Source: Candidatus Electryonea clarkiae (GTDB lineage: Bacteria > Electryoneota > Electryoneia > Electryoneales > Electryoneaceae). From it: a stretch of 14,789 bases of DNA. Made by a program: the position numbers and the translations under genes. Positions 1-14,789 of the stretch are shown piece by piece. The notes under the pieces were generated by a model that ran no database searches, was not told the DNA's origin, and saw only the letters and a program-made list of their open reading frames with translations. The stretch spans positions 1 through 14,789 of the forward strand of contig JAVCCM010000093.1 in NCBI GenBank assembly GCA_030765455.1. The letters run 5' to 3'. How positions within the stretch are numbered: position 1 is the first letter of the stretch; each line of letters begins with the position of its first letter.

Positions 1-105
1 TGAAATATCAAGGGAAAGTAAACAGGAGCCGTATACGTGAACCGTACGTACGGTTCTGTGAGAGGGATGAGGCGAAGTAGATCACTCCGCCTCACCCTAC
101 TCGAT
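1..105 (+). mobile_element. Group II intron 3' terminus (domain V, then a domain VI-like hairpin). The intron body and any IEP gene would lie upstream of the window.
   Basis: Positions 26-56, gAGCcguauacgugaaccguacguacgguuc, reproduce the canonical domain V flanks GAGCCGUAU / ACGUACGGUUC. They include the AGC catalytic triad, G-U wobbles and the 2-nt AC bulge (46-47). A GC-rich imperfect hairpin follows (about 63-100, gagggatgaggcg...cgcctcaccc) with an unpaired A, consistent with domain VI. The end coordinate is approximate. Confidence 0.5.
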
Positions 106-227
106 TGTTTTTGTGATGATTCAATCGTAGATATAGTGATTACACTTTGGATGAATCCGCCAAAGGTTGGACAAGCCAAACTTTGTTTTTGCGTATTCAA
201 TAGTTTTGATTCAGGATTTGAAGAACA

Positions 228-263
228 AACCATGTTTGAAATCAAACATGGCCACCCGCCGCC
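228..263. repeat. Direct repeat copy 1 (aaccatgtttgaaatcaaacatggccacccgccgcc). It contains the hairpin ccatgtttga-aa-tcaaacatgg. On the minus strand this reads as hairpin followed by tttgttctt, an intrinsic-terminator-like signal directly after the SIR2 stop.
   Basis: The 30-nt core is identical to 1936-1965. The 10-bp perfect stem is visible in the sequence. It abuts the stop codon of the SIR2 gene (263-265). Confidence 0.8.
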
Positions 264-1798
264 TATATTTGAAAAACCTCATCAATTATTTTATACTTTT
301 TTAAGTCATAAGCGCAAAGTAATTTTCTGTAATTAGTTCCTGTTTTAAGTGAATTGTTGAAATTTCTAAGGAATTCTTCCGTATCTCCTAAAGTGACCTT
401 GTTCTCCATGATTGACCACAATATTGCATTTGTTTTATTGCTTGTGGTTACAGAATCGTCCTCTATAATATCTTGAATTTTTGAGTGTGATGTTTTACAA
501 TTTTCATTAATTTTGCTAAAACTATTTTCAATATTTGAAGATTGTTGTTTTTGTAATTTCTGTATATTTTCTATTTCTGAACATATTTGACCAAATCCAT
601 AAACTGGAAAATATTGCGAACTGTGTATCGTGTGTTTATTGATGAGTGTTAGTAATTGAGAGTTAGATTCATCCAATATGTTGAAATAATTTGACATCAT
701 TTCAGAAGATGTTTGATATTGGTAGCTAATTGTTTTCATTGACCCAATTGCAATTATTTTGTCGCTATTTCTTAGCGTATCCAAGTCTTCTGTGATTTTA
801 ACTTTAATATCTCCGCCTGAATATATTTCTCTTACAATTCTTTGAACTTTGCGTACATCCATGGCAGAAACAGGAAGCGATAATTTAGATAATGATTTAT
901 AAATTTCAATAAAATCGTCCGTTTTTATTTTATTAATTCTTATAGTGGAAAATCCTTCGATATCAATATCATGTTCTGTTATTTCATGTGATAATGAATT
1001 CTTTTCAAATTCTACCAATAGGAAATTTGCTCTGATTCTTTGAGCCTCATCAGAATTAAACTCAACATAGGTGAATATAGTTTTCAACAAACTCTTTATG
1101 TTCTTATCTCCTATGCCATATCCCAAAAATATTATTGGGTTATGAATAAATATCGACAGTAGTTGAGCTCGTATTAATTCATATTTATTTTCAAACAAAT
1201 CATAATCATTTTCAGTTATTATAATTTTCGATGGTTGCGTTGTACAACCATGAATTTTGTAAACAGAACCATAAGGATTACTAAGTAGAATGTCATTACC
1301 AATCAAAGGATTGAATTTAAAAACATTCTTTACAAGAGAGTCATAGTTTGTTGTTATGATAGAACCAATATTTTTTCTTGTTTTTTTAAATTCTGCAATT
1401 TCATCTTTCATTTCTTCTTTAAAATCTAAACATGAATGGATATTTGATATATATATTTTAAACCGACTCAGATTAATTCCTTTGTTCATTTGATCATAAA
1501 AATAATCATTAACATCTTTAAATTTACCATTGCGATCTTTTACCAATGAATCGTTAAAATCGTGTTCTAACAATTGAGCTATTTTATCATATGCAAATAT
1601 TCCGTCGTCTTCACATCTAGACTTTATATCTAAATAATATTCAGAATTATCTTTCAATTCAACAGAGATATATTTTAGCAAGTTATCCCACGTATATGAA
1701 TTATTTAGATATCTTAAACTGATTCCAGTTCCTATGAACAGGACAGGATGATTTCTATATTTAGAAATGAAGTCATGAACATTCATTAATAATCCCAT
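263..1798 (-). CDS. SIR2-like (SIR2_2 / DHS-like NAD-binding) domain protein with an uncharacterised C-terminal domain of about 250 aa. Candidate NADase-type anti-phage defence protein, possibly ThsA-like.
   Basis: The 511-aa ORF has an N-terminal HPVLFIGTGISLRYLNNSYTWDNLLKYIS (the GAG-S / PsW-LL motif of the SIR2_2 family). It also has IITTNYDSLV (catalytic Asn motif), KIHGC (catalytic His) and IIFLGYGIGDKN. Total length and the N-terminal SIR2 plus C-terminal alpha/beta-like region resemble Thoeris ThsA (SIR2-SLOG). The C-terminal domain is not identified. Confidence 0.8.
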   Translation of the reverse strand: MGLLMNVHDFISKYRNHPVLFIGTGISLRYLNNSYTWDNLLKYISVELKDNSEYYLDIKSRCEDDGIFAYDKIAQLLEHDFNDSLVKDRNGKFKDVNDYFYDQMNKGINLSRFKIYISNIHSCLDFKEEMKDEIAEFKKTRKNIGSIITTNYDSLVKNVFKFNPLIGNDILLSNPYGSVYKIHGCTTQPSKIIITENDYDLFENKYELIRAQLLSIFIHNPIIFLGYGIGDKNIKSLLKTIFTYVEFNSDEAQRIRANFLLVEFEKNSLSHEITEHDIDIEGFSTIRINKIKTDDFIEIYKSLSKLSLPVSAMDVRKVQRIVREIYSGGDIKVKITEDLDTLRNSDKIIAIGSMKTISYQYQTSSEMMSNYFNILDESNSQLLTLINKHTIHSSQYFPVYGFGQICSEIENIQKLQKQQSSNIENSFSKINENCKTSHSKIQDIIEDDSVTTSNKTNAILWSIMENKVTLGDTEEFLRNFNNSLKTGTNYRKLLCAYDLKKYKIIDEVFQI

Positions 1799-1935
1799 TG
1801 AAAATTGATCCGTAAAAAATGCGGATTAATTGTTTCCCGTCAGACGAGTGACCCTGTTGGCACCATGCCTACGTTGGATCTCTCAACGTGGTTATATTGT
1901 TATATTCGATAACGTTGATCAAGATTTGTAGAATA

Positions 1936-1973
1936 AACCATGTTTGAAATCAAACATGGCCACCCTCCCGCCC
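1936..1973. repeat. Direct repeat copy 2 (aaccatgtttgaaatcaaacatggccaccctcccgccc), immediately followed by caggttatccca (1974-1985). On the minus strand it is a terminator-like hairpin followed by tttattcta, after the stop of the 186-aa gene.
   Basis: 30/30 identity to copy 1, then a near-identical GC tail. It lies 14 nt 3' of the stop of ORF 1987..2547. Confidence 0.8.
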
Positions 1974-1986
1974 AGGTTATCCCAGG

Positions 1987-2547
1987 CTATGTTACTTGAA
2001 ATATTTGATCGTAAAGATCATACAAATGTGTAGTACCTAATTCTTCTAAAGTTACACTGCTATTCCAATTTAATTCGTGATGATCAAATGATTCATCATT
2101 TATTATTGTGTATGTTTTACCGGGTAATTTCAGTTTATGAACAATGCCAAAGCGTTCCCATTTCGTAATAAAGCGATCATGGGACAAATTTAAATTATAT
2201 AATTCAGAAGTAGAAAAATTTTCAATCTTTGAGGAAAGTTTAAAAGATGGTGCGACAAATAGTATTATTTTTGGTTTCAAAATGAGATCATTATAACTGA
2301 TATTTACTATGTCTGCTCCCAAACTTTTTGCGTAAATATATGTATCTTCCTCTGATTCAACTCGATCATTATAGAATTTTTTAAAGGAATAACAAGCATA
2401 TTTCATCATTATATTTGATGGGATTCCGGACCACATAAATCGGTGACAACTAAATCCAAATGGTTCAAAATGTTCTGAGAGTGTTTTCATCCACATTAAG
2501 GTAGATTTTCGTACTATTGCTCCAGGAAGTATAATCAATTGACTCAT
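1987..2547 (-). CDS. Hypothetical 186-aa soluble protein with no recognisable domain. Translationally coupled to the upstream membrane protein.
   Basis: ORF with an ATGA start/stop overlap with 2544..3644. No signal peptide or TM segment. I see no TIR, Macro or nuclease motif with confidence. Confidence 0.6.
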   Translation of the reverse strand: MSQLIILPGAIVRKSTLMWMKTLSEHFEPFGFSCHRFMWSGIPSNIMMKYACYSFKKFYNDRVESEEDTYIYAKSLGADIVNISYNDLILKPKIILFVAPSFKLSSKIENFSTSELYNLNLSHDRFITKWERFGIVHKLKLPGKTYTIINDESFDHHELNWNSSVTLEELGTTHLYDLYDQIFQVT

Positions 2548-3644
2548 TTTAATACTTTTTGTTTAAATAATTCGGAAAGCAGACTTACTACGAAGGGGGA
2601 TAGTAAAGGTAGCAGAAGCATTGTGTAAACATTCGCAAATAGCTTGAATTCAAACAATCGGGAATCAGTTTTTTGCAGCCCCTCATAGATAGTAAAAAAT
2701 CCTTGGTTTTTCAAGGTTTGAATTCTTCCAACAAAGTCGGACGATTTTAAATCCAAGGTGTTTATTCCATATTTACTGAATGTTTCTTTAACTGCATCAT
2801 CTTTGAATCGATTGAGCAAAACCTTTATCGGTTTGAAATACATTAAAAGGATAATTGGACTTAGAAGGAAAAATCCAAAAATCATCATTAGTAACTCTGG
2901 ATCTCCAAATAAGGTTTCAAGAGAAAATGTATCTTCCCAATTAAGAAATATGATAAGAAAATAGAATCCAAATATTGAATATATCATTACAATCCTTTGT
3001 CCAAGTCTAATTAAATTTTCAAGACCACATTTTTCATCTGGGAATAGTAATTTTGGTACTAAAACTGATTTATTGCATATATTTCGAACGAATCTTGCGA
3101 AAAAAATCGTATCAATGATTAGAATAATTAAATGATATGCGATGATTGCAAAGATTACTGCGTAATACCAACCACATACTGTAGGATTTCCATCTATTAG
3201 ATGGACATAATTAACATCTGCATTTTGTCCACCAAGCTGGATGATAGTGAATAAAAATACTATTGCCACAACTTCGATGTTAGCAAATATTGAATATTTA
3301 AGAGAAACTATTTTTCCATACTTAGTTCTATTAGGAATATCTAAAATGCCATTTGTTTCAAGATCTCCAAATACTTTTGATGTATCTTTGTAAAAACGTG
3401 ATGCTTGGTAAAAAAGTGCAGGAATCAGAAGGGTTCCTCCTACTAAAATAGTCAAATGGTCAATCAGGGGTTTCTCAATTTCAGCACTTGGAAGTAATGT
3501 TCCTTCAAACATTGAGATTATTACCTGGATGATAAAAGTAAGAAAAAATACAATAAATGTTAAAAGCCAAGAGGAGGGAGATATGACAACTTTGTCATAT
3601 ATTGGTGATCTCAGGAAGCGTCCATTAAATACTTTTTCAGGCAT
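2544..3644 (-). CDS. Hypothetical polytopic inner-membrane protein (about 7-8 predicted TM helices), family unknown.
   Basis: The 366-aa ORF has multiple 20-25-residue hydrophobic stretches (e.g. SWLLTFIVFFLTFIIQVIISMF, IEVVAIVFLFTIIQLGG, YYAVIFAIIAYHLIILIIDTIFF, LLMMIFGFFLLSPIILLMYF, VYTMLLLPLLSPFVVSLLSELF). Its stop overlaps the start of the 186-aa gene (ATGA at 2544-2547). No Abi/CAAX or other motifs recognised. Confidence 0.65.
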   Translation of the reverse strand: MPEKVFNGRFLRSPIYDKVVISPSSWLLTFIVFFLTFIIQVIISMFEGTLLPSAEIEKPLIDHLTILVGGTLLIPALFYQASRFYKDTSKVFGDLETNGILDIPNRTKYGKIVSLKYSIFANIEVVAIVFLFTIIQLGGQNADVNYVHLIDGNPTVCGWYYAVIFAIIAYHLIILIIDTIFFARFVRNICNKSVLVPKLLFPDEKCGLENLIRLGQRIVMIYSIFGFYFLIIFLNWEDTFSLETLFGDPELLMMIFGFFLLSPIILLMYFKPIKVLLNRFKDDAVKETFSKYGINTLDLKSSDFVGRIQTLKNQGFFTIYEGLQKTDSRLFEFKLFANVYTMLLLPLLSPFVVSLLSELFKQKVLK

Positions 3645-3855: not shown

Positions 3856-4113
3856 CTAGTCTGGTGGACCTATATCTTTTCTCTCTACTTTATCGACTGT
3901 ATCTACCGATTGCATATTACCCGGTGTTTCTGGATGTTTTTGGGTGTCTTCCATTACCCAGTTGGGGAGATCGAGTCCTTCCAGGTTCCGGATATTCTTC
4001 AAGCCGGAGAAAGTACCCCATAAACCGTTAACGAATTCGGCAGTGTTAGTCTTGCCGCTATCCCTGTTGCCGCCAAGGTTATCCCATGCTTCATTCCTAT
4101 TTTTGTATCGCAT
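3856..4113 (-). pseudogene. Orphan C-terminal fragment of flotillin (a duplicate of the 3' end of the gene at 5602..7062).
   Basis: The translated fragment ...WDNLGGNRDSGKTNTAEFVNGLWGTFSGLKNIRNLEGLDLPNWVMEDTQKHP... aligns to residues about 407-460 of the intact flotillin (VVWDNLGGGRDSGKTNTAEFVNGLWGTFPGLKNVLNMVGLDLPNWVMEDTQKHP). There is no SPFH domain or TM segment. Homology starts abruptly at 4087. Confidence 0.75.
3932..4087. repeat. Imperfect direct repeat copy A (about 156 bp, about 88% identical to 5696-5851), derived from the flotillin 3' coding region. It ends in ccgccaaggttatccca.
   Basis: By-eye alignment shows the first about 41 nt identical, a diverged middle, a 31-nt identical block ataaaccgttaacgaattcggcagtgttagt, then an identical 18-nt end. 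Confidence 0.8.
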
Positions 4114-4534
4114 GTAAAATCTTCAATTTTATCTCTTCTGAATCGAACTTGCCATTGATCAAAGCTGTTATTATTTCCAACAGTAGATCTTTATCAATTC
4201 GACCTGCAGCGACATGGTAACTGATATTTTCCATTTCTCGAATAAAACTTCCAGCGATGAATAGATATCCATTAAGTAACAAAAATTGTGCCCCGAGGGA
4301 AATTGCTATTCTTTTATTTCCATCTTGAAAGCAGTGAAACTTGTTTGCCGAGTAAAACAAATGTGTAAGTTTCTCCTCGAAAGTAGAGTAATAAACGTCA
4401 TTCTGAATATGCTCAAGAACACTGTCCAGTAAGCCTATATCCATGAGGCCATCAGCACCTCCTCCACTAACCTCAACAGTTTTCTTATGAATCTCAACTG
4501 CCTGGTCGAGAGTGGGATAAATAATTCTCCTCAC
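4097..4534 (-). CDS. doc: Doc (death-on-curing) / Fic-family toxin.
   Basis: 145 aa. HCFQDGNKRIAISLGAQFLL matches the Doc Fic motif H-x-F-x-D-x-N-K-R (P1 Doc: HIFNDANKRTA). The N-terminal LDQAVEIHKKTVEVSGGGADGLMDIGLLDSVLEHIQ resembles the Doc N-terminus. There is a 4-bp overlap with the upstream gene. Confidence 0.8.
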   Translation of the reverse strand: MRRIIYPTLDQAVEIHKKTVEVSGGGADGLMDIGLLDSVLEHIQNDVYYSTFEEKLTHLFYSANKFHCFQDGNKRIAISLGAQFLLLNGYLFIAGSFIREMENISYHVAAGRIDKDLLLEIITALINGKFDSEEIKLKILHAIQK

Positions 4535-5550
4535 TCTCGTTCCTTCAATCGTTTGAATACATCTTTTGCCTCTTCAAGTCGTTCAGCAAGCTCTTTACTT
4601 TTTTCGCCAAGAAAACGCTCAAATTCATCGGATTGAAGCGGCGTGATATACTCCTTCAGTTGAAGATGTAATGCATCACGAAAAGCCAGATCGCGACTTG
4701 CCATCTTCTGCCGTGCTCGCTCGATGAGAGGCTTCCAGTGAGGTTGGGATTCAAATTCTGAGAATAGATGATCAACTTCCCAGGAGTCCAGTTTTCTATC
4801 TACCTTGTAAAATGCTTCCTCTAATGCTTTAGCAAACCCATATTCATACGATGAAATAAGATCAAGAATTTCGGAGTAAAACGTGTCTCGTACTTTTTCA
4901 TTTGCTTGTAATTTCAAAATATTGCGATACTCTTCAGCATTTTCACGGAATATACTTAGATAGATTTTATTCGTATAGATTGGGTACTTGATGTTTCCCA
5001 TATCTACAAAATCACGTAATGCGTCTGTAAACTCCTTACGGTAGTCTTCCTCCTGAAAATATGCTATGATGAAATCTTCATCGCGTTGGTTGATATATTT
5101 GGTGCCTCCGCCTGATTTTATATTGATTGTATCAATAACAATATCAAGTATTGTCTGTCGAAGCAGCCTGGCTCGTTCGCTTTCTGTTAGCAACATTGCT
5201 ATATTCAAAAATGCCCGGAAATTGAATGCCCCTAATCGTGTAGTTTTGGTAGGGACATTGATGTCCTTACCAAACTGTCCCTCTACAGCTAACATGAAGG
5301 TACTCAGCCGTTTCCCTCGAAGAACCACGTAACCGTTTTTTGTCAATTCATCGGAATATTTGCCGATATATCGATTCACGGTTCGAATGTCGATTTCAAA
5401 AAATGCAGCTACTTGCTCTCTTATAACCCAGTATGAATTTTCAAACTTGATGCCTTTGATCTCTACTGCATTTTGGATTTCTTTCAGGGCATAGGGATTA
5501 TTAAGAACATTTTGCCTGTCTATTTGTGATTGTGTAAGATTCTTATTCAT
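4531..5550 (-). CDS. RhuM-like (virulence protein RhuM family; ORF6N/KilA-N-type DNA-binding N-terminus) protein. Probable partner or antitoxin-like component for Doc.
   Basis: 339 aa. VIREQVAAFFEIDIRTVNRYIGKY resembles the RhuM-family motif (approximately LMAELFQKDVRTINEHLKNIY). The size is typical of RhuM (about 340 aa). It is translationally coupled (ATGA-type overlap at 4531-4534) to doc. The family assignment rests on recall of the family consensus, not on a search. Confidence 0.55.
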   Translation of the reverse strand: MNKNLTQSQIDRQNVLNNPYALKEIQNAVEIKGIKFENSYWVIREQVAAFFEIDIRTVNRYIGKYSDELTKNGYVVLRGKRLSTFMLAVEGQFGKDINVPTKTTRLGAFNFRAFLNIAMLLTESERARLLRQTILDIVIDTINIKSGGGTKYINQRDEDFIIAYFQEEDYRKEFTDALRDFVDMGNIKYPIYTNKIYLSIFRENAEEYRNILKLQANEKVRDTFYSEILDLISSYEYGFAKALEEAFYKVDRKLDSWEVDHLFSEFESQPHWKPLIERARQKMASRDLAFRDALHLQLKEYITPLQSDEFERFLGEKSKELAERLEEAKDVFKRLKERE

Positions 5551-5601: not shown

Positions 5602-7062
5602 CTAGCTTTCCTCGTCCACTGTTTCAGATGAATGCATATTTTCTTTCTTCACTTCAGCTGGAGTATCCGCAGTTGCTGTTGTAGCTTGCGTAGCCGGATG
5701 TTTTTGGGTGTCTTCCATTACCCAGTTGGGGAGATCCAATCCTACCATGTTCAGGACATTTTTTAAGCCGGGGAAAGTACCCCATAAACCGTTAACGAAT
5801 TCGGCAGTGTTAGTTTTGCCGCTATCCCTGCCGCCGCCAAGGTTATCCCAGACTACGACATTACTCAGATCAAGACCCTGTACCGTATCACCTACAATTT
5901 TGGTTAAATCGGTGATCTTGTCGGCGATCATCAGTTGTACAGCGCGGTCAGGATCATTACCTGCGGCGTTGACGATCTCCTTCAAACCATTAGCTGTTTT
6001 TTCAAGGATTTCAAATGCACCGCGTCCCTGGGCTTCCATCTTGGCGAATATGGCGTCTGCTTCACCCTTCGCCTCACGGCGTAATTTCTCAGCTTCAGCT
6101 TCGGCAGCTATTTCGATCTTCTGTTTGTTGATTTCAGCCGGGACAACATCCTCTGCACGTTGACGGGCACGTTCCATATCGGCACGGGAATCCTCAGCTT
6201 TTTGCTCTGCCTGGAAGGCTTCCCTTTCGGCGTCAGCCTGCTTGGTACGTTCGGCGGCGTAACCAAGTCTCTCAGCTTCCGCGACCTTTTCACGACGTTG
6301 GGCGTTACTGTTTTCCTCGGTTACTTTGGCAACGTTTTCACCTGTCACCGCATCAGCGTTGGCACTGGCGACGTTGACGCGCTGATCACGTACAGCGTTG
6401 GCGCGTCCTACCTCACCATCACGTTCCTGCTCGGCGACTTTTATCTTCGCTTCGTTGATCGCGCGAGCCGCGGCTTCCTTACCAAGGGCTTCGATATATC
6501 CGCTTTCGTCCTTGATATCGGTGATATTCACATTGATCAGTTTCAAACCGATCTTTTTCAGCTCTGTTTCAACGCTCTGCGTGATATTCTGGACGAATTT
6601 ATCACGGTCAACATTGATTTCTTCGATTCTCATGGTAGCGATAACACTACGGAGCTGACCGAGGATGATCTCTTCAGCGAGGGCTTCAACCTGGGTGTGT
6701 TTCAGGCCGAGGAGACGTTCAGCGGCATTGCTCATTATCGCCAGGGTGGTGGAGATACCTACAGTGAACACCGAAGGAACGTCAACACGAATATTCTGCA
6801 AACTCAACGCTCCCCGAAGATTGATTCCAATCTGCATCGGGCTGAGGCTGAGGAACTGGTAAGACTGGATCAGTGGCCAGATGAATGCTGTTCCGCCATG
6901 AATGCATTGAGAGCTGCGTGACTCGCCGTCACTGCCCTTTCCGACCTTTCCGTAAACGACAAGTACCTGGTCACTCGGGCAGCGTTTTACCCGGCTTAAT
7001 GTGGCAATAAGTAAAGAAAATGCAAGAATAAAAATAACTACAAGTGCGGTTAAACCAATCAT
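5602..7062 (-). CDS. yqiK: Flotillin / SPFH (band 7) domain protein, YqiK-like.
   Basis: 486 aa. It has an N-terminal TM segment (LTALVVIFILAFSLLIATL) and an SPFH region. A long Ala/Glu/Lys/Arg-rich coiled-coil (AEAERLGYAAERTKQADAEREAFQAEQKAED...EAEAEKLRREAKGEADAI) is typical of flotillins. It sits downstream of an NfeD-like gene, as in yqiJ-yqiK. Confidence 0.85.
   Translation of the reverse strand: MIGLTALVVIFILAFSLLIATLSRVKRCPSDQVLVVYGKVGKGSDGESRSSQCIHGGTAFIWPLIQSYQFLSLSPMQIGINLRGALSLQNIRVDVPSVFTVGISTTLAIMSNAAERLLGLKHTQVEALAEEIILGQLRSVIATMRIEEINVDRDKFVQNITQSVETELKKIGLKLINVNITDIKDESGYIEALGKEAAARAINEAKIKVAEQERDGEVGRANAVRDQRVNVASANADAVTGENVAKVTEENSNAQRREKVAEAERLGYAAERTKQADAEREAFQAEQKAEDSRADMERARQRAEDVVPAEINKQKIEIAAEAEAEKLRREAKGEADAIFAKMEAQGRGAFEILEKTANGLKEIVNAAGNDPDRAVQLMIADKITDLTKIVGDTVQGLDLSNVVVWDNLGGGRDSGKTNTAEFVNGLWGTFPGLKNVLNMVGLDLPNWVMEDTQKHPATQATTATADTPAEVKKENMHSSETVDEES
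5696..5851. repeat. Imperfect direct repeat copy B (within the intact flotillin 3' coding region), ending in ccgccaaggttatccca.
   Basis: See copy A. The repeat encodes WDNLGGG...HP of the intact flotillin. Confidence 0.8.
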
Positions 7063-11228: not shown

Positions 11229-12401
11229 CTAAAAAGAAATACCAAATTCAATCCATTCAGTATTAGTTACAGGGTGACCTTCGCCTGCATCCCAAAATGA
11301 TTTTGAATAATTGATATTCGTCCTTGTCATTATTAATTTGTAAAACTTTCCGTAAGATTTCCCCTGTTTTTGTGATCTGGTATATAGATAATTTGTTATT
11401 CCATTGCTCTTGATTGTGAAACCAGAGGTGGCGTTGAAGAGTGATCCCCAGGTATCATAGTAATTACCCCATCTGTATAAAAACGAATTAAAGAAATTGA
11501 CCTCGCGTCCTACACCTCCGGTGTTTATCCACTCTTTGCTAACATTGTGTACTTTTTGTTTGTTGAAATCCTGTGCATATATAAATGAGAATAGATGGTA
11601 ATCCGGCAGCTCACAGCGAAACTCAAGTCCATATCCCTTTCGTTTTATCGCTGGAAGTGGAACATTATATTGTAAATCACAGCCCAAATTTGAGTTTGAA
11701 TAACCGTAACTTGGAATGATATCGACCCTAAAAGGTTTTATTGATTCCAGCGGTTTATAATTAAATACTTCAGTGAGTGCATTGTTTAGCGGTAAACGAA
11801 AAAGGACACCCCAATCATATGCTTCAGCGCTTTGATCATTTTCTTCGTAAGAATGAAAATCCGCCCGGTGTAATTTGATTGCGTCAGATTTGTATCCCAC
11901 TCCCATTTCGATGAAATGTCGTAATCCGACAGACAAGGCATAGGATTCATTTTTATCCCAAGGTTCAATCTGGTAAATAAGATCCCCTTCATTATTCCAG
12001 ACTTCAACTCTACCGAGATTTAAAAAGCTTCGGGAATATTCAATCCCGATTGAAATCTGCCTTGTTCTCTCACCTTCCTCTTTATAGAAAGTCCAGCCAG
12101 CAAATAAGCTTGTATAATTAAAATAGAGGTCGTCTATCTTAAATGCTGGCAAATAATCAACATAAGAATGTGATGCTGCAAAGTTGTGGTCAAGGCTGAA
12201 TATTCCCATACTTCCGGGATTAAAATGACCTGACATTGGATCAACCAGCGCAGTTTGAGCTTCACCCATACCTGTTGCCCTGGCGCCAGGTGAAATGAGT
12301 AAAAAGAAAGGAGCAGTCTCATTGATATGGGTTTCTCCATTGGATACAATCGGGAGGAGTGTAATCAGGGTAATCAAGAAAAGAAGATAACCGTACCTCA
12401 T
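11229..12401 (-). CDS. Outer-membrane beta-barrel protein, FadL/PorV-like (PorV/PorQ-type), paralog 1.
   Basis: Signal peptide from M at 12401 (MRYGYLLFLITLITLLPIVSNG; the longer ORF to 12470 is probably not used). An N-terminal motif PGARATGMGEAQTALVDPMSGHFNPG resembles the FadL-family plug motif (sARalGMGgA..A.aDD.sA...NPAg). An aromatic-rich beta-strand pattern, and a C-terminal ...WIEFGISF with a terminal Phe (OMP signature). About 60-65% identical to paralog 2. Confidence 0.7.
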   Translation of the reverse strand: MRYGYLLFLITLITLLPIVSNGETHINETAPFFLLISPGARATGMGEAQTALVDPMSGHFNPGSMGIFSLDHNFAASHSYVDYLPAFKIDDLYFNYTSLFAGWTFYKEEGERTRQISIGIEYSRSFLNLGRVEVWNNEGDLIYQIEPWDKNESYALSVGLRHFIEMGVGYKSDAIKLHRADFHSYEENDQSAEAYDWGVLFRLPLNNALTEVFNYKPLESIKPFRVDIIPSYGYSNSNLGCDLQYNVPLPAIKRKGYGLEFRCELPDYHLFSFIYAQDFNKQKVHNVSKEWINTGGVGREVNFFNSFLYRWGNYYDTWGSLFNATSGFTIKSNGITNYLYTRSQKQGKSYGKFYKLIMTRTNINYSKSFWDAGEGHPVTNTEWIEFGISF

Positions 12402-12561
12402 AAAAGACAAGATATCTATATCTTTTCGAAGATTTTGAAGAGTAATCAATCTAATAGAATCATTAAGCATTTTACAGTCTTTCCTTGGTTAACTTTTACT
12501 TAAGCGGTTCACTTTGCTAAATTAATCTTATGTGTTAGGGTTTAGATATGAAACCAGCCAG

Positions 12562-13749
12562 TTAAAATGAAATACCAAGTTCTATCCATTCAGTATCAGT
12601 TAAAGGCTGACCTTCGCCTGCGTGAAATAATGATCTGGAATATTTAAAATTCATGCGAGTCATCACGAAATCATACAACTCGCCTTTAGCCCATTCCTGG
12701 TGTTGAGAACTAAGGTGAATGATTTTTAATATTCCGCTACTTTGAAAAGTGAAACCGGTTGTTGATCGTGAAGCTCGTCCCCAGGTGTCATAATAGTTAC
12801 CCCAACGATATATGAAAGAATCGAAGAAAGTAATTTCACGACCTACACCGGATGTTTCTATCCATTCTTTACTCCTGAGATCGGCTCTATCCCTATTAAT
12901 ATCATGAGCATAAATGAAGCCAAGCAACGGAACAACCGGTAGGTCAAAACGAAATTCAAGGGCATACCCACTGCGATGCACTTCCGGGAGAGGATCATCA
13001 TACATCTCATCCCCGCCCAGATTTGATTTTGAAAATCCATAACTTGGGATGAAATCGATTAAGAAGGGATATATTGATTCAGACACATCGTAATGGAGTC
13101 CCTCTTTTAATACAGTATTCGTGGGCAGGCGGATCAATATTCCCCAGTCATAAGCTTTGGCGTTCACTTCATCATCATATTCAGGATTACCAATATTAGA
13201 AAACTCGCTCAGATGGCTCGTGATGTAATTCAATTTATAGCCGATTCCCACTTCAGCCAGGTAGCGAAAACCGATAGAAACGCCGTAAGAGTAATTGTTC
13301 TCCCACGATTCAAAAGAACCTAGGTCTTCGTTGTTTTCACCCCTGCGTTCGGTTTTCCCAAGGTTCAGAAATCGCCTTGTCACTTCAATTCCACCAGATA
13401 TTTCGAGGGGATTATCAGGTTGCTTTTCATACAACTTCCATCCGGCAGATAATTGAGAATAGTTGAGATATAAATCATCTAAATTAAACCTAGGCAACCA
13501 GTCAGCACTGGTATAAGAGTATGAATAATTATGATCAAGACTGAATACACCTTTACTTCCGGCATTAAAGTGCCCCGACATGGGATCGACCAATGCCACC
13601 TGTGCGTCACCCATACCTGTCGCCCTGGCACCCGGAGTTATCAACATAAAACGGGCACTGGCAGCATTAGCGTGATTGTTTGAAAATAATAGAAACAGCA
13701 GAAGAATAAAAATTAATGATCTGGTACTATCGTTTGTGAATATTTTCAT
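12562..13749 (-). CDS. Outer-membrane beta-barrel protein, FadL/PorV-like, paralog 2.
   Basis: A clear signal peptide MKIFTNDSTRSLIFILLLFLLFSNNHANA, PGARATGMGDAQVALVDPMSGHFNAG, and C-terminal WIELGISF. Confidence 0.75.
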   Translation of the reverse strand: MKIFTNDSTRSLIFILLLFLLFSNNHANAASARFMLITPGARATGMGDAQVALVDPMSGHFNAGSKGVFSLDHNYSYSYTSADWLPRFNLDDLYLNYSQLSAGWKLYEKQPDNPLEISGGIEVTRRFLNLGKTERRGENNEDLGSFESWENNYSYGVSIGFRYLAEVGIGYKLNYITSHLSEFSNIGNPEYDDEVNAKAYDWGILIRLPTNTVLKEGLHYDVSESIYPFLIDFIPSYGFSKSNLGGDEMYDDPLPEVHRSGYALEFRFDLPVVPLLGFIYAHDINRDRADLRSKEWIETSGVGREITFFDSFIYRWGNYYDTWGRASRSTTGFTFQSSGILKIIHLSSQHQEWAKGELYDFVMTRMNFKYSRSLFHAGEGQPLTDTEWIELGISF

Positions 13750-13776
13750 ATTATCTCCCGATATTGAGTCAAAAAA

Positions 13777-14789
13777 TTAAAATGAAATACCAAGTTCTAT
13801 CCAAGCGGAATCAGATATATCATAATTGCTGCCTGCTTTCCAGAATGACCTGGAATATTTGAAATTCAGCCGGTTCATTACAAAATTGTACAATTCGCCT
13901 TCAGCCCATTCCTGATCCTGCGTGGCGAGATGAATTATTTTTAGTATTCCTTTACTTTGCAGTGAATAACCCGTTGTGGACTTGAAAAGGTGTCCCTCGG
14001 TGTCATAATAATTACCCCAGCGATAGACGAATGAATCAAAAAACGAGAACTCCCTGCCAACGCCCCCGGTTTTGTATCCATTATCTCCTGAAGGGATGTC
14101 ATACCTGATATCGTTATCTCCTGAAGGGATGTCATACCTGATATCGTTAAAATCCTGGGTGTATATAAAAGCAAGCAAAGGCACAACCGGCAGATCAATT
14201 CGAAATTCCAAAGCATAACCTCTTCGATTTATTTCCGGGAGAGGTTGTCCATATACTTTATTGTCTCCCAGGTTAGAATTCGAATAGCCAAAACTTGGAA
14301 TAATATCAATAGTGAAAGGGTCAATTAACCTTTGAGTATTTATATTATACACCTCTTTCAGTGCATTATTTATCGGCAACCTTAACAGGATACCCCAATC
14401 ATATGCTCTCGCATTACGATCATTCCCGGAATTTGGAAAATTGCTTCCCAAATGTGATGTAATAAAATCAGTTTTGTAACCGATTCCCAACTCGGCGATA
14501 TACCGCAATCCAATCGAAACTCCATAAGTGTAATTCCGCTCCCATAAATTTCCAGTACTAATGATTCCATATAAATCATCTCGCACTACATACTCACCTT
14601 CATCAATAAATCTTTTTGTAACTTCCAGTCCGCCTGATATTTCCAGAGGATATCCAATCCTCTTATTATGTGTGCCCAGCATGGAGTGGACGCCTGATTT
14701 TGTTAATACACCCCGATCTGGGGGAAGTAAAACCGATTGGCAAGGGCGTTGCTGGCAACGGCAGGGTCTGAAGGCAGCCATAGGCAGCA
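13777..14789 (-). CDS. Outer-membrane beta-barrel protein paralog 3, 5'-incomplete or N-terminally replaced (open to the window edge).
   Basis: Homology to paralog 2 runs from about residue 43 (YPLEISGG; about 14655 downward) to the C-terminal WIELGISF. The region 14660-14789 is unrelated to the paralog N-termini (no signal peptide, no PGARATGMG motif) and the frame stays open to the end of the window. It contains an in-frame 33-bp tandem duplication. Confidence 0.6.
   Translation of the reverse strand, partial: LPMAAFRPCRCQQRPCQSVLLPPDRGVLTKSGVHSMLGTHNKRIGYPLEISGGLEVTKRFIDEGEYVVRDDLYGIISTGNLWERNYTYGVSIGLRYIAELGIGYKTDFITSHLGSNFPNSGNDRNARAYDWGILLRLPINNALKEVYNINTQRLIDPFTIDIIPSFGYSNSNLGDNKVYGQPLPEINRRGYALEFRIDLPVVPLLAFIYTQDFNDIRYDIPSGDNDIRYDIPSGDNGYKTGGVGREFSFFDSFVYRWGNYYDTEGHLFKSTTGYSLQSKGILKIIHLATQDQEWAEGELYNFVMNRLNFKYSRSFWKAGSNYDISDSAWIELGISF
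14081..14146. repeat. Perfect 33-bp tandem duplication (2 copies of ttatctcctgaagggatgtcatacctgatatcg), in frame within paralog 3, encoding DIRYDIPSGDN twice.
   Basis: Copy 1 is 14081-14113 and copy 2 is 14114-14146, identical at all 33 positions. The protein shows FNDIRYDIPSGDNDIRYDIPSGDNGYK, in a segment that is variable between paralogs. Confidence 0.9.

What the first reader, a model, noticed from the sequence alone, without database searches (positions are those of the whole stretch)
263..1798. Stand-alone SIR2_2 protein with an unassigned C-terminal domain: candidate NADase defence effector (ThsA-like?)
The N-terminal 250 aa carry the SIR2_2 hallmarks (VLFIGTGIS...YTWDNLL; IITTNYD; KIHGC), with both catalytic Asn and His positions present. 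The C-terminal 250 aa (e.g. ...DKIIAIGSMKTISYQYQ...) match no domain I can name. At 511 aa, the size and the N-SIR2 / C-alpha-beta arrangement resemble Thoeris ThsA (SIR2-SLOG). No convincing TIR (ThsB) partner is recognisable nearby. The neighbouring 186-aa protein is the only candidate partner and has no recognisable TIR motifs. If the C-terminal domain is a new sensor module, this would be an unclassified SIR2 defence variant.
Basis: partly seen in the sequence, partly recalled or inferred. Interest (0 to 1): 0.75.

Follow-up and report, generated by a model that had tools for sequence, protein, structure and literature searches.

The report
Stand-alone SIR2 candidate phage-defence gene
This gene encodes a single-protein, probably NAD-destroying enzyme from a large, mobile family already listed as an untested anti-phage candidate (PADLOC PDC-S25); it is not a Thoeris ThsA, and its tail domain resembles nothing solved so far.

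Summary
The ORF is real: 263-1798, minus strand, 511 aa, with the likely start at M5 (507 aa). It carries a Pfam SIR2_2 domain. The catalytic Asn151 and His183 are conserved in all 24 representatives examined, close and distant.

The protein is not unclassified. It matches PADLOC candidate PDC-S25 end to end (E=3.8e-159) and PHROG 2695. PDC-S25 is one of 145 untested "phage defence candidates" found by embedding in restriction systems.

Homologues number more than 1,600 clusters across phyla. They sit alone in defence or mobile contexts: between hsdS and hsdR, in the P2 prophage gpQ-gpA hotspot, and in prophage replication modules.

The 186-aa neighbour belongs with the 366-aa membrane protein, not with SIR2.

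Best reading: a single-protein, DSR-like abortive-infection NADase whose variable helical tail regulates or senses. This is inferred, not tested. Interest is moderate.

The parts
263..1798 (-). SIR2-family ORF, 511 aa (stop codon 263-265). The probable true start is the ATG at 1786 (M5), giving 507 aa.
   Evidence: ORF list. Homologues and the GenBank protein P0001 begin at MNV/MNI. Full-length match to PADLOC PDC-S25 (E=3.8e-159) and phrog_2695. GC is 27.6% against about 40% for the rest of the window.
884..1798 (-). N-terminal SIR2_2 (Rossmann-type, NAD-binding) domain, aa 1-305, with a helical insertion at about aa 37-142.
   Evidence: Pfam SIR2_2. AF2 model. Foldseek hits to the SIR2 domains of DSR2, ThsA, KomC, SIR2-HerA and SPARSA, E from 1e-6 to 1e-3. 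phmmer hits to ThsA and KomC are limited to this part.
1346..1348 (-). Codon of the catalytic Asn151 (TTNYD motif).
   Evidence: Translation. Invariant in 50 close homologues and present in all 24 representatives examined. Aligns to N112 of BcThsA.
1250..1252 (-). Codon of the catalytic His183 (KIHG motif). It is preceded by the family-specific, largely invariant loop LIGNDILLSNPYG (aa 165-177).
   Evidence: Translation. Conservation. The loop has pLDDT below 50 in the model despite its conservation.
719..883 (-). Conserved linker segment, aa 306-360 (LPxSAMDxRKVQ...GGxIKVxI...DKIIAIGS). Its structure is modelled poorly.
   Evidence: 71-84% identity among close homologues, as high as the SIR2 core. 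pLDDT is below 50 in the full-length model and 60-77 in the C-terminal model. There is only a marginal profile similarity to part of UvrA (E=0.009).
266..718 (-). C-terminal all-helical domain, aa 361-511. It is specific to this family and is the most variable part of the protein.
104..260 (-). Intergenic repeat element just downstream of the gene. It contains the perfect palindrome CCATGTTTGAAATCAAACATGG (230-251) followed by a U-rich tail, so it is a likely terminator.
   Evidence: Terminator-like site 253->228. Fold. A 50-nt copy at 92% identity lies at 1919-1968. Copies of 83-87% identity follow ordinary genes on a related contig, L051.
1860..1968 (-). Upstream copy of the same intergenic repeat (hairpin 1 at 1938-1959, hairpin 2 at 1869-1891). 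It separates the SIR2 gene from the 186-aa gene, in a 188-nt gap.
   Evidence: The SIR2 gene therefore sits between two terminator-like repeats as its own transcription unit.

Best explanation
The gene encodes a member of the PDC-S25 / phrog_2695 family. This is a self-contained, single-protein anti-phage system of the defence-associated-sirtuin kind.

Proposed mechanism:
1. The N-terminal SIR2_2 domain, with its intact Asn151/His183 pair and GxG NAD-binding loop, is the effector. When switched on it hydrolyses NAD+, starving the infected cell and the phage (abortive infection or growth arrest).
2. The rest of the protein keeps the enzyme off in uninfected cells and turns it on after infection. 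This part is a conserved linker (aa 306-360) plus a fast-evolving, family-specific helical domain (aa 361-511).
3. Activation most likely comes from binding a phage-made component, possibly with a change of oligomeric state, as in DSR2 and ThsA.

Shown here: the ORF, the domain and the catalytic residues; family membership; the absence of any conserved partner gene; the non-SLOG helical C-terminus; and mobile or defence-linked genomic contexts.

Inferred by analogy with characterised SIR2_2 defence proteins: NADase chemistry, anti-phage function, and the sensor role of the C-terminus.
For: (1) SIR2_2 domain with conserved catalytic residues, also in distant relatives. The best structural matches are all anti-phage NADases: DSR2, ThsA, KomC, SIR2-HerA and SPARSA.
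(2) Full-length match to PADLOC PDC-S25. That family was nominated because members are embedded in BREX, DISARM or type I RM operons. I reproduced this: the Pseudomonas migulae homologue lies between hsdS and hsdR.
(3) In E. coli P2-like prophages a 54%-identical homologue is the only gene between portal gpQ and replication gene gpA. That is the anti-phage hotspot described by Rousset et al. 2022.
(4) Other copies:
- 12 loci lie between the ssDNA-binding protein and the DNA polymerase genes of prophages.
- Some lie next to Ant anti-repressors.
- One lies beside an integrase.
- One lies beside a Septu-like AAA ATPase pair.
(5) No conserved neighbour. Among 115 non-redundant +/-2 neighbours from 49 loci, no Pfam family occurs more than three times. 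This fits a single-gene system.
(6) The effector is conserved and the C-terminal domain is variable, the usual pattern for effector-plus-sensor immune proteins.
(7) In the window the gene is AT-rich relative to the host (27.6% against about 40% GC). It lies in a run of accessory genes next to another PADLOC candidate, PDC-M59A/B, which includes a Fic/DOC protein.
(8) 62-73% identity across Gammaproteobacteria, Bacteroidota, Firmicutes, Ignavibacteria and Electryoneota indicates frequent horizontal transfer.
Against: - No member of the family has been tested. PDC-S25 is listed among 145 untested candidates, and I found no paper reporting an assay.
- NADase activity is inferred from homology only. 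SIR2 domains can also deacylate or ADP-ribosylate.
- The C-terminal region is never found with another effector. The domain-shuffling signature expected of a modular sensor is therefore absent; it could be a purely structural or oligomerisation domain.
- Some copies are solitary among housekeeping genes, in Mucilaginibacter and Vibrio.
- In 12 prophages the gene is co-oriented inside the replication module, so it may be expressed in the lytic cycle rather than from the lysogen.
- The conserved segment 306-360 and the largely invariant loop 165-177 are not modelled with confidence.
Confidence: 0.6

Rival explanations
1. It is an orphan or misplaced Thoeris ThsA: a SIR2-SLOG effector activated by a cyclic ADP-ribose isomer made by a TIR protein, ThsB, encoded elsewhere.
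For: The size is similar (511 aa against about 476-485 aa). The SIR2 domain is N-terminal. ThsA is among the best sequence and structure matches for the SIR2 part.
Confidence: 0.03
2. It uses NAD+ to modify a specific target (ADP-ribosylation or deacylation of a phage or host protein or nucleic acid) rather than depleting NAD+ in bulk. It would still be a conflict or defence protein.
For: The SIR2 fold supports these chemistries. The same Asn/His pair serves them (established knowledge of sirtuins; discussed in PMC9503650). A family-specific, largely invariant loop (LIGNDILLSNPYG) next to the catalytic His could be a substrate-binding element.
Against: The Pfam match is to SIR2_2, not to the classical SIR2 deacylase family. 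There is no Cys4 zinc module: six isolated cysteines and no CxxC motif, read directly from the sequence. Every characterised structural neighbour is an NADase.
Confidence: 0.13
3. It serves the phage rather than the host. It would be a lytic-cycle or counter-defence function of temperate phages, for example reshaping host NAD metabolism or destroying NAD-derived immune signals.
For: The family has its own PHROG. 41 IMG/VR viral loci carry it. In 12 of them it is co-oriented between the SSB and DNA polymerase genes of the replication module. Distant homologues occur in Lactococcus BK5-T, Streptococcus and Bacillus phages.
Against: The same family occurs outside prophages: inside a type I RM operon, and as solitary chromosomal genes. 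In P2-like prophages it occupies the old/tin exclusion hotspot. Prophage-borne defence genes are common in exactly such positions.
Confidence: 0.08
4. It is the toxin or effector of a two- or three-gene system with the adjacent 186-aa protein and the 366-aa membrane protein.
For: The genes are adjacent, on the same strand, and share low GC.
Against: The 366-aa and 186-aa genes overlap by 4 nt. They are separated from SIR2 by 188 nt that contains two terminator-like hairpins. Neither has a homologue in any of 52 fetched loci. The 186-aa protein has one relative in 5.8 billion sequences. There it again follows a 54%-identical homologue of the 366-aa protein, and the next gene is on the opposite strand and is not a SIR2 relative.
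Confidence: 0.02
5. It is a housekeeping or regulatory sirtuin with no role in conflict.
For: A few copies sit among metabolic genes.
Against: The distribution is patchy and horizontally transferred, with 62-73% identity across phyla. Contexts are prophage, RM and integrase-linked. The zinc module of classical sirtuins is absent. GC is atypical in this genome.
Confidence: 0.03

Closest known systems
PADLOC phage defence candidate PDC-S25 (Payne et al., bioRxiv 10.1101/2024.01.29.577857) / PHROG phrog_2695
   Same: This is the same family. The HMM matches end to end (aa 5-503 to model positions 8-515 of 517, E=3.8e-159; phrog_2695 E=4.5e-132). It is a single gene, and some members are embedded in type I RM.
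   Different: Nothing differs structurally. The family is only a computational candidate with no assay, mechanism or domain description, so membership does not establish function.
DSR2 (defence-associated sirtuin 2, Bacillus subtilis; PDB 8wy8, 8wkn and others) and DSR1
   Same: It is a single polypeptide with an N-terminal SIR2_2 NADase followed by an all-helical C-terminal region and no partner gene. DSR2 gives the top Foldseek hits (E about 1e-6). This is the best working analogy for the mechanism: a phage protein binds the helical part and releases the NADase.
Thoeris ThsA (SIR2-SLOG; PDB 6lhx, 8bto, 8wc0)
   Same: The SIR2 domain is homologous, with the same TTNYD Asn and (K/M)HG His. The overall length is similar.
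   Different: There is no SLOG/STALD domain and no ThsB/TIR partner, so there is no evidence of second-messenger activation.
Lactococcal AbiH (single-gene abortive infection protein reported to resemble sirtuins; PMC13064643)
   Same: It is a single-gene system with a sirtuin-like fold, and it is mobile.
   Different: The Pfam and PADLOC scans at E<=0.1 returned no AbiH family. AbiH is shorter (about 346 aa, from my own knowledge) and lacks this C-terminal domain.
KomC of the Kongming system and SIR2 of SIR2-HerA / SPARSA
   Same: These are related SIR2_2 NADase domains.
   Different: They are multi-gene systems in which partner proteins (KomA/B, HerA, short pAgo) do the sensing. Here no partner exists.

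Membership tests
PADLOC PDC-S25 / phrog_2695 | Full-length match to the family HMM. | tested here: met
   PDLC04968: E=3.8e-159, 529 bits, aa 5-503 against model positions 8-515 of 517. phrog_2695: E=4.5e-132, aa 5-505.
PADLOC PDC-S25 / phrog_2695 | Single-gene system with no conserved partner. | tested here: met
   In 49 homologue loci, no Pfam family occurs in more than 3 of 115 non-redundant +/-2 neighbours. In an E. coli P2-like prophage the homologue is the sole gene in the hotspot.
PADLOC PDC-S25 / phrog_2695 | Members embedded within BREX, DISARM or type I RM operons (the basis of the candidate call). | tested here: met
   The Pseudomonas migulae homologue P0067 lies between hsdS and hsdR. 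The criterion is described. The window copy itself is not embedded in an RM system.
PADLOC PDC-S25 / phrog_2695 | Demonstrated anti-phage activity. | not testable with these tools
   The source paper lists the family as untested. Literature searches found no assay.
Thoeris ThsA | N-terminal SIR2 domain with the catalytic Asn and His. | tested here: met
   N151 and H183 align to the ThsA TTNYD and YKMHGD motifs. They are conserved across the family.
Thoeris ThsA | C-terminal SLOG/STALD ligand-binding domain. | tested here: not met
Thoeris ThsA | Adjacent ThsB (TIR-domain) gene. | tested here: not met
   None in the window. None recurs among the neighbours of 49 loci. None appears in 7 Pfam-annotated genomic loci. 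A single isolated TIR neighbour could have been missed, because only the 25 top families were printed.
Defence-associated sirtuins DSR1/DSR2 | SIR2 NADase fused to a large helical (MID plus alpha-solenoid CTD) sensor of about 700 aa; sequence membership in the DSR families. | tested here: not met
Defence-associated sirtuins DSR1/DSR2 | Activation by a phage structural protein (tail tube for DSR2). | not testable with these tools
   This needs genetics or biochemistry.
Classical sirtuin deacylases (Pfam SIR2, PF02146) | Match to PF02146 and a Cys4 zinc-binding module. | tested here: not met
   Only SIR2_2 (PF13289) matches. The sequence has six isolated cysteines and no CxxC motif.
AbiH | Match to the AbiH family model. 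| tested here: not met
   The Pfam and PADLOC scans at E<=0.1 returned no AbiH family.

The most novel reading that the evidence does not exclude
PDC-S25 is a widespread but never-tested single-protein immune receptor. More than 1,600 sequence clusters exist across at least five phyla, including E. coli P2-like prophages. In this reading, a structurally new helical domain, found in no other protein architecture and with no relative among solved structures, directly recognises a phage component and unleashes a SIR2 NADase. It would be a compact 'mini-DSR' with its own trigger and probably its own phage-encoded inhibitors.
Probability: 0.4. Interest if true: 0.55.

Novelty: new variant of a known kind. 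Interest (0 to 1): 0.38.

Why it matters
If the family works as inferred, it adds a compact one-gene NAD-depletion system to the list of sirtuin-based immunity (Thoeris, DSR1/2, SIR2-HerA, SPARSA, Kongming). It is about half the size of DSR2.

It is common and mobile. It also occurs in tractable hosts, such as E. coli P2-like prophages and Pseudomonas, so it is easy to test.

Its C-terminal domain has no solved structural relative. Finding its ligand would add a new example of how bacteria recognise phages.

For this window in particular, the result is a correction. The gene is neither a ThsA nor an unclassified novelty. It is a member of an already catalogued but uncharacterised candidate family.

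Tried and rejected
- **Wasted genome scan.** The genome-contig scan with the single protein returned one locus only. I used IMG/VR (41 loci) and exact-protein look-ups instead.
- **Integron hypothesis rejected.** I asked whether the 50-157-nt repeats bracketing the SIR2 gene are attC-like cassette boundaries. Each hairpin is self-complementary on its own. The same repeats follow ordinary genes (radical-SAM, NmrA-like, SEC-C) on contig L051 from the same population. They look like species-specific, REP/BIME-like bidirectional terminators.
- **Chance match.** The C-terminal query hit a 2,862-aa protein, P0237. It is an FG-GAP/RTX repeat protein, so the match is chance.
- **Marginal similarity.** aa 312-353 show a weak profile similarity to part of UvrA (E=0.009-0.024). 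I note it as a possible small structural unit, not as homology.
- **Upstream 423-aa protein.** A 423-aa protein (phrog_12525) lies upstream of SIR2 in five loci, L026-L030. It is restricted to one 46-47%-identity subgroup of apparently related prophages and absent elsewhere. I did not follow it up as a partner.
- **Literature.** Searches for an experimental test under other names (DSR3, PD-T4/T7/lambda systems, P2 hotspot systems, S. thermophilus and cold-seep PDC tests, language-model screens) found none that covers this family.
Full report
**1. The observation.**
The window has an uninterrupted ORF at 263..1798 on the minus strand, 511 aa. The contig belongs to a Candidatus Electryonea clarkiae MAG, whose GenBank protein (P0001, "SIR2 family protein") is 507 aa. 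That protein and the homologues start at the second Met (M5, nt 1786).

Pfam SIR2_2 matches aa 146-242 (E=2.4e-19). N151 (TTNYD, nt 1346-1348) and H183 (KIHG, nt 1250-1252) align to the catalytic Asn112 and the YKMHGD His of B. cereus ThsA. N151 is invariant and H183 at least 90% conserved in 50 close homologues. Both are present in all 24 representatives examined, 18 of them distant, down to about 43% identity in the SIR2 part.

The protein has six isolated cysteines and no CxxC motif, so it lacks the zinc module of classical sirtuins (sequence).

**2. The C-terminal half.**
A full-length AlphaFold model built from a 50-sequence alignment has pLDDT 76.6. It gives:
- a SIR2 fold for aa 1-305;
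- an unmodelled stretch at aa 310-360;
- helices only from aa 361 to 511.

A second model covered aa 300-511 and used a more diverse 42-sequence alignment. It reached pLDDT 86.9, with aa 361-511 mostly between 89 and 98 and entirely helical.

Comparisons of that model and of the sequence found nothing significant:
- Foldseek against viral models gave nothing below E=0.1.
- Pfam and NCBIfam gave nothing significant.
- A 21-sequence profile against all PDB sequences gave only a marginal UvrA segment (E=0.009).

The full-length model's Foldseek hits are all SIR2 domains of anti-phage NADases: DSR2, ThsA, KomC, SIR2-HerA and SPARSA.

A phmmer search of aa 300-511 against 1.84 billion representatives found 131 proteins. 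Every full-length one is about 500 aa with the domain at about 295-500. The rest are fragments, apart from one chance hit to a 2,862-aa repeat protein. The domain therefore exists only in this architecture.

By segment, the SIR2 core (aa 141-250) is the most conserved and the helical tail the most variable. Identity to distant members is 17-34% for the tail, against 43-62% for the SIR2 part. The linker, aa 306-360, is as conserved as the core among close relatives.

A family-specific, largely invariant loop (LIGNDILLSNPYG, aa 165-177) lies just before the catalytic His. It is modelled at pLDDT below 50.

**3. Family membership.**
The protein matches PADLOC model PDC-S25 end to end (E=3.8e-159). 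ThsA models score only 55 bits, and only on the SIR2 part. It also matches phrog_2695 over its full length (E=4.5e-132, function unknown).

PDC-S25 is one of 145 "phage defence candidates". They were derived from genes embedded in BREX, DISARM or type I RM systems, and the source paper describes them as untested. Only two held papers mention PDC-S25. The one read simply lists it as a prediction in an E. coli O157:H7 strain. Other searches found no assay of this family under another name.

The family is large. The search returned 1,667 clusters with E<=0.001. The top 120 are 62-73% identical to the query and come from Gammaproteobacteria, Bacteroidota, Firmicutes, Ignavibacteria and others.

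**4. Neighbourhoods.**
I examined 41 IMG/VR loci, one GTDB locus and seven exact-protein loci. ORF clustering showed no conserved neighbour.

Recurrent settings are prophage accessory positions:
- between a Gp2.5/Enc34-like ssDNA-binding protein and the DNA polymerase (12 loci);
- between terminase/portal and the gpA replication nickase of P2-like prophages (4 loci);
- next to Ant anti-repressors.

In an annotated E. coli genome, the homologue is the only gene between portal gpQ and the replication endonuclease of a P2-like prophage. That is the cos-proximal anti-phage hotspot of Rousset et al. 2022, whose figure legend lists SIR2 among the domain labels but whose validated systems do not include a SIR2 gene.

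In cellular genomes:
- the Pseudomonas migulae copy sits between hsdS and hsdR;
- the Anaeromusa copy precedes an AAA_15/AAA_21 ATPase pair;
- the Microbulbifer copy follows an integrase;
- the Mucilaginibacter and Vibrio copies are solitary.

I scanned 115 non-redundant +/-2 neighbours. No Pfam family occurs more than three times. PADLOC hits include type I and IIG RM, PtuA-like ATPases and other PDC candidates.

No TIR or ThsB protein recurs. Only the 25 top families were printed, so a single isolated TIR neighbour cannot be excluded.

**5. The window context.**
The SIR2 gene has 27.6% GC. The neighbouring 186-aa and 366-aa genes have 30-31%, and the rest of the window has about 40%.

The 366-aa membrane protein gene and the 186-aa gene overlap by 4 nt. 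They are separated from SIR2 by 188 nt that contains two terminator-like hairpins. Neither protein has a homologue in any of 52 fetched loci. The 186-aa protein has a single relative in 5.8 billion sequences. There it again follows, with overlap, a 54%-identical homologue of the 366-aa protein, and the next gene is on the opposite strand and is not a SIR2 relative. It is therefore the partner of the membrane protein, not of SIR2.

Further along the minus strand lie PDC-M59A/B, the latter a Fic/DOC protein. Next to them is an SPFH/flotillin gene whose 3' end is duplicated.

A palindrome-bearing element brackets the SIR2 gene (50-nt copies at 211-260 and 1919-1968, 92% identical), and 55-157-nt matches to it follow ordinary genes on contig L051 from the same population. 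It is best read as a species-specific intergenic terminator repeat, not an integron attC.

**6. Mechanism.**
The best-supported reading is a self-contained abortive-infection protein. The SIR2_2 domain would hydrolyse NAD+ once activated. The linker and the variable helical tail would hold it inactive and respond to infection.

The closest working analogy is DSR2, a single polypeptide with a SIR2 domain, a helical sensor and a phage protein as trigger. This protein is nevertheless not a DSR member by sequence, size or C-terminal fold.

The steps shown are the domains, the catalytic residues, single-gene status and the mobile or defence-linked context. The steps inferred are NADase chemistry, anti-phage function and sensing by the tail. 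My confidence is about 0.6.

Rivals:
- target-specific ADP-ribosylation or deacylation (0.13);
- a phage-serving function (0.08);
- an orphan ThsA (0.03);
- a housekeeping sirtuin (0.03);
- a system with the 186-aa and 366-aa neighbours (0.02).

**7. Verdict.**
The feature is real and probably a defence gene, but it is neither ThsA-like nor unclassified. It is a member of an already catalogued, uncharacterised candidate family. Relative to characterised systems it is a new variant of the SIR2-effector kind, with a C-terminal domain that has no solved structural relative. Interest is moderate (0.38). The main value is that homologues in E. coli P2-like prophages make the family easy to test.

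Noticed in passing
window 24-105 (+): This is the 3' end (domains V/VI) of a group II intron: Rfam RF00029, 48.1 bits against a gathering score of 40, E=5e-7. It ends exactly where the 157-nt intergenic repeat downstream of SIR2 begins (position 104/105). In intact copies of that repeat (L051) the next element is a hairpin that reads as hairpin plus T-run on the + strand. The intron therefore seems to be inserted right after a terminator-like motif, and it probably explains why the contig ends here.
   Followed up: partly
window 1987-3644 (-): An orphan two-gene module: a 366-aa multi-pass membrane protein and a 186-aa protein whose genes overlap by 4 nt. GC is low, and there are no significant (above-cutoff) Pfam or NCBIfam hits and no PADLOC hits. 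The only homologous pair known is on a 1.75-kb ENA contig (L053), at 54% and 65% identity and in the same order. It lies between two PADLOC candidates, so it may itself be an unrecognised accessory or defence module.
   Followed up: partly
window 4097-5550 (-): PADLOC candidate PDC-M59. M59A is 339 aa (E=1.7e-107). M59B is 145 aa (E=6e-41) and is a Fic/DOC death-on-curing-type protein (Pfam Fic, TIGR01550). It looks like a toxin-antitoxin-style pair next to the SIR2 region.
   Followed up: partly
window 3856-4113 (-), 5636-5850, 1968-1989: The last ~215 nt of the SPFH/flotillin gene (5602-7062) are duplicated at 81% identity, forming an 85-aa remnant ORF downstream of PDC-M59. A third 22-nt copy of the same core (TGGGATAACCTKGGCGG, encoding WDNLGG) lies right after the 186-aa gene. 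This looks like successive insertions of accessory genes at one site in the 3' end of the flotillin gene. The mechanism is unknown and no integrase is in the window.
   Followed up: partly
window 104-260 and 1860-1968; locus L051 at 880-957, 2730-2937, 5848-6033 and 6580-6663: A species-specific intergenic repeat made of two separate hairpins: GGTGGCCATGTTTGA..TCAAACATGGTT and CCACGTTGGGCGAGCCAACGTGGGCATGGTGC. It follows unrelated genes. Contig L050 has a tandem variant with compensatory changes in the stem. It is probably a REP/BIME-like bidirectional terminator.
   Followed up: partly
window 11229-14781 (-): Three tandem paralogous genes (413, 395 and 334 aa; 60-75% nucleotide identity in blocks) with no family assigned here. 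The third contains a perfect 33-nt tandem duplication (14081-14146) that repeats the peptide DIRYDIPSGDN. The last 108 nt of the window are 100% identical to the start of metagenome contig L051, which suggests an assembly break in a repeat.
   Followed up: no
loci L026-L030 (IMG/VR): In a subgroup of homologues 46-47% identical to the query, the SIR2 gene is preceded on the same strand by a 397-423-aa protein of phrog_12525 (unknown function), with a gap of about 80 nt. It could be a subgroup-specific partner, or simply conserved prophage synteny.
   Followed up: no
GenBank phages: Lactococcus BK5-T 23679-25271, Streptococcus SVep1 and Javan227, Bacillus phBC6A51: Distant homologues (26-27% identity, 83-97% of the query covered) are annotated only as hypothetical proteins in cultured temperate phages of Firmicutes. 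In BK5-T the match spans two annotated ORFs.
   Followed up: no
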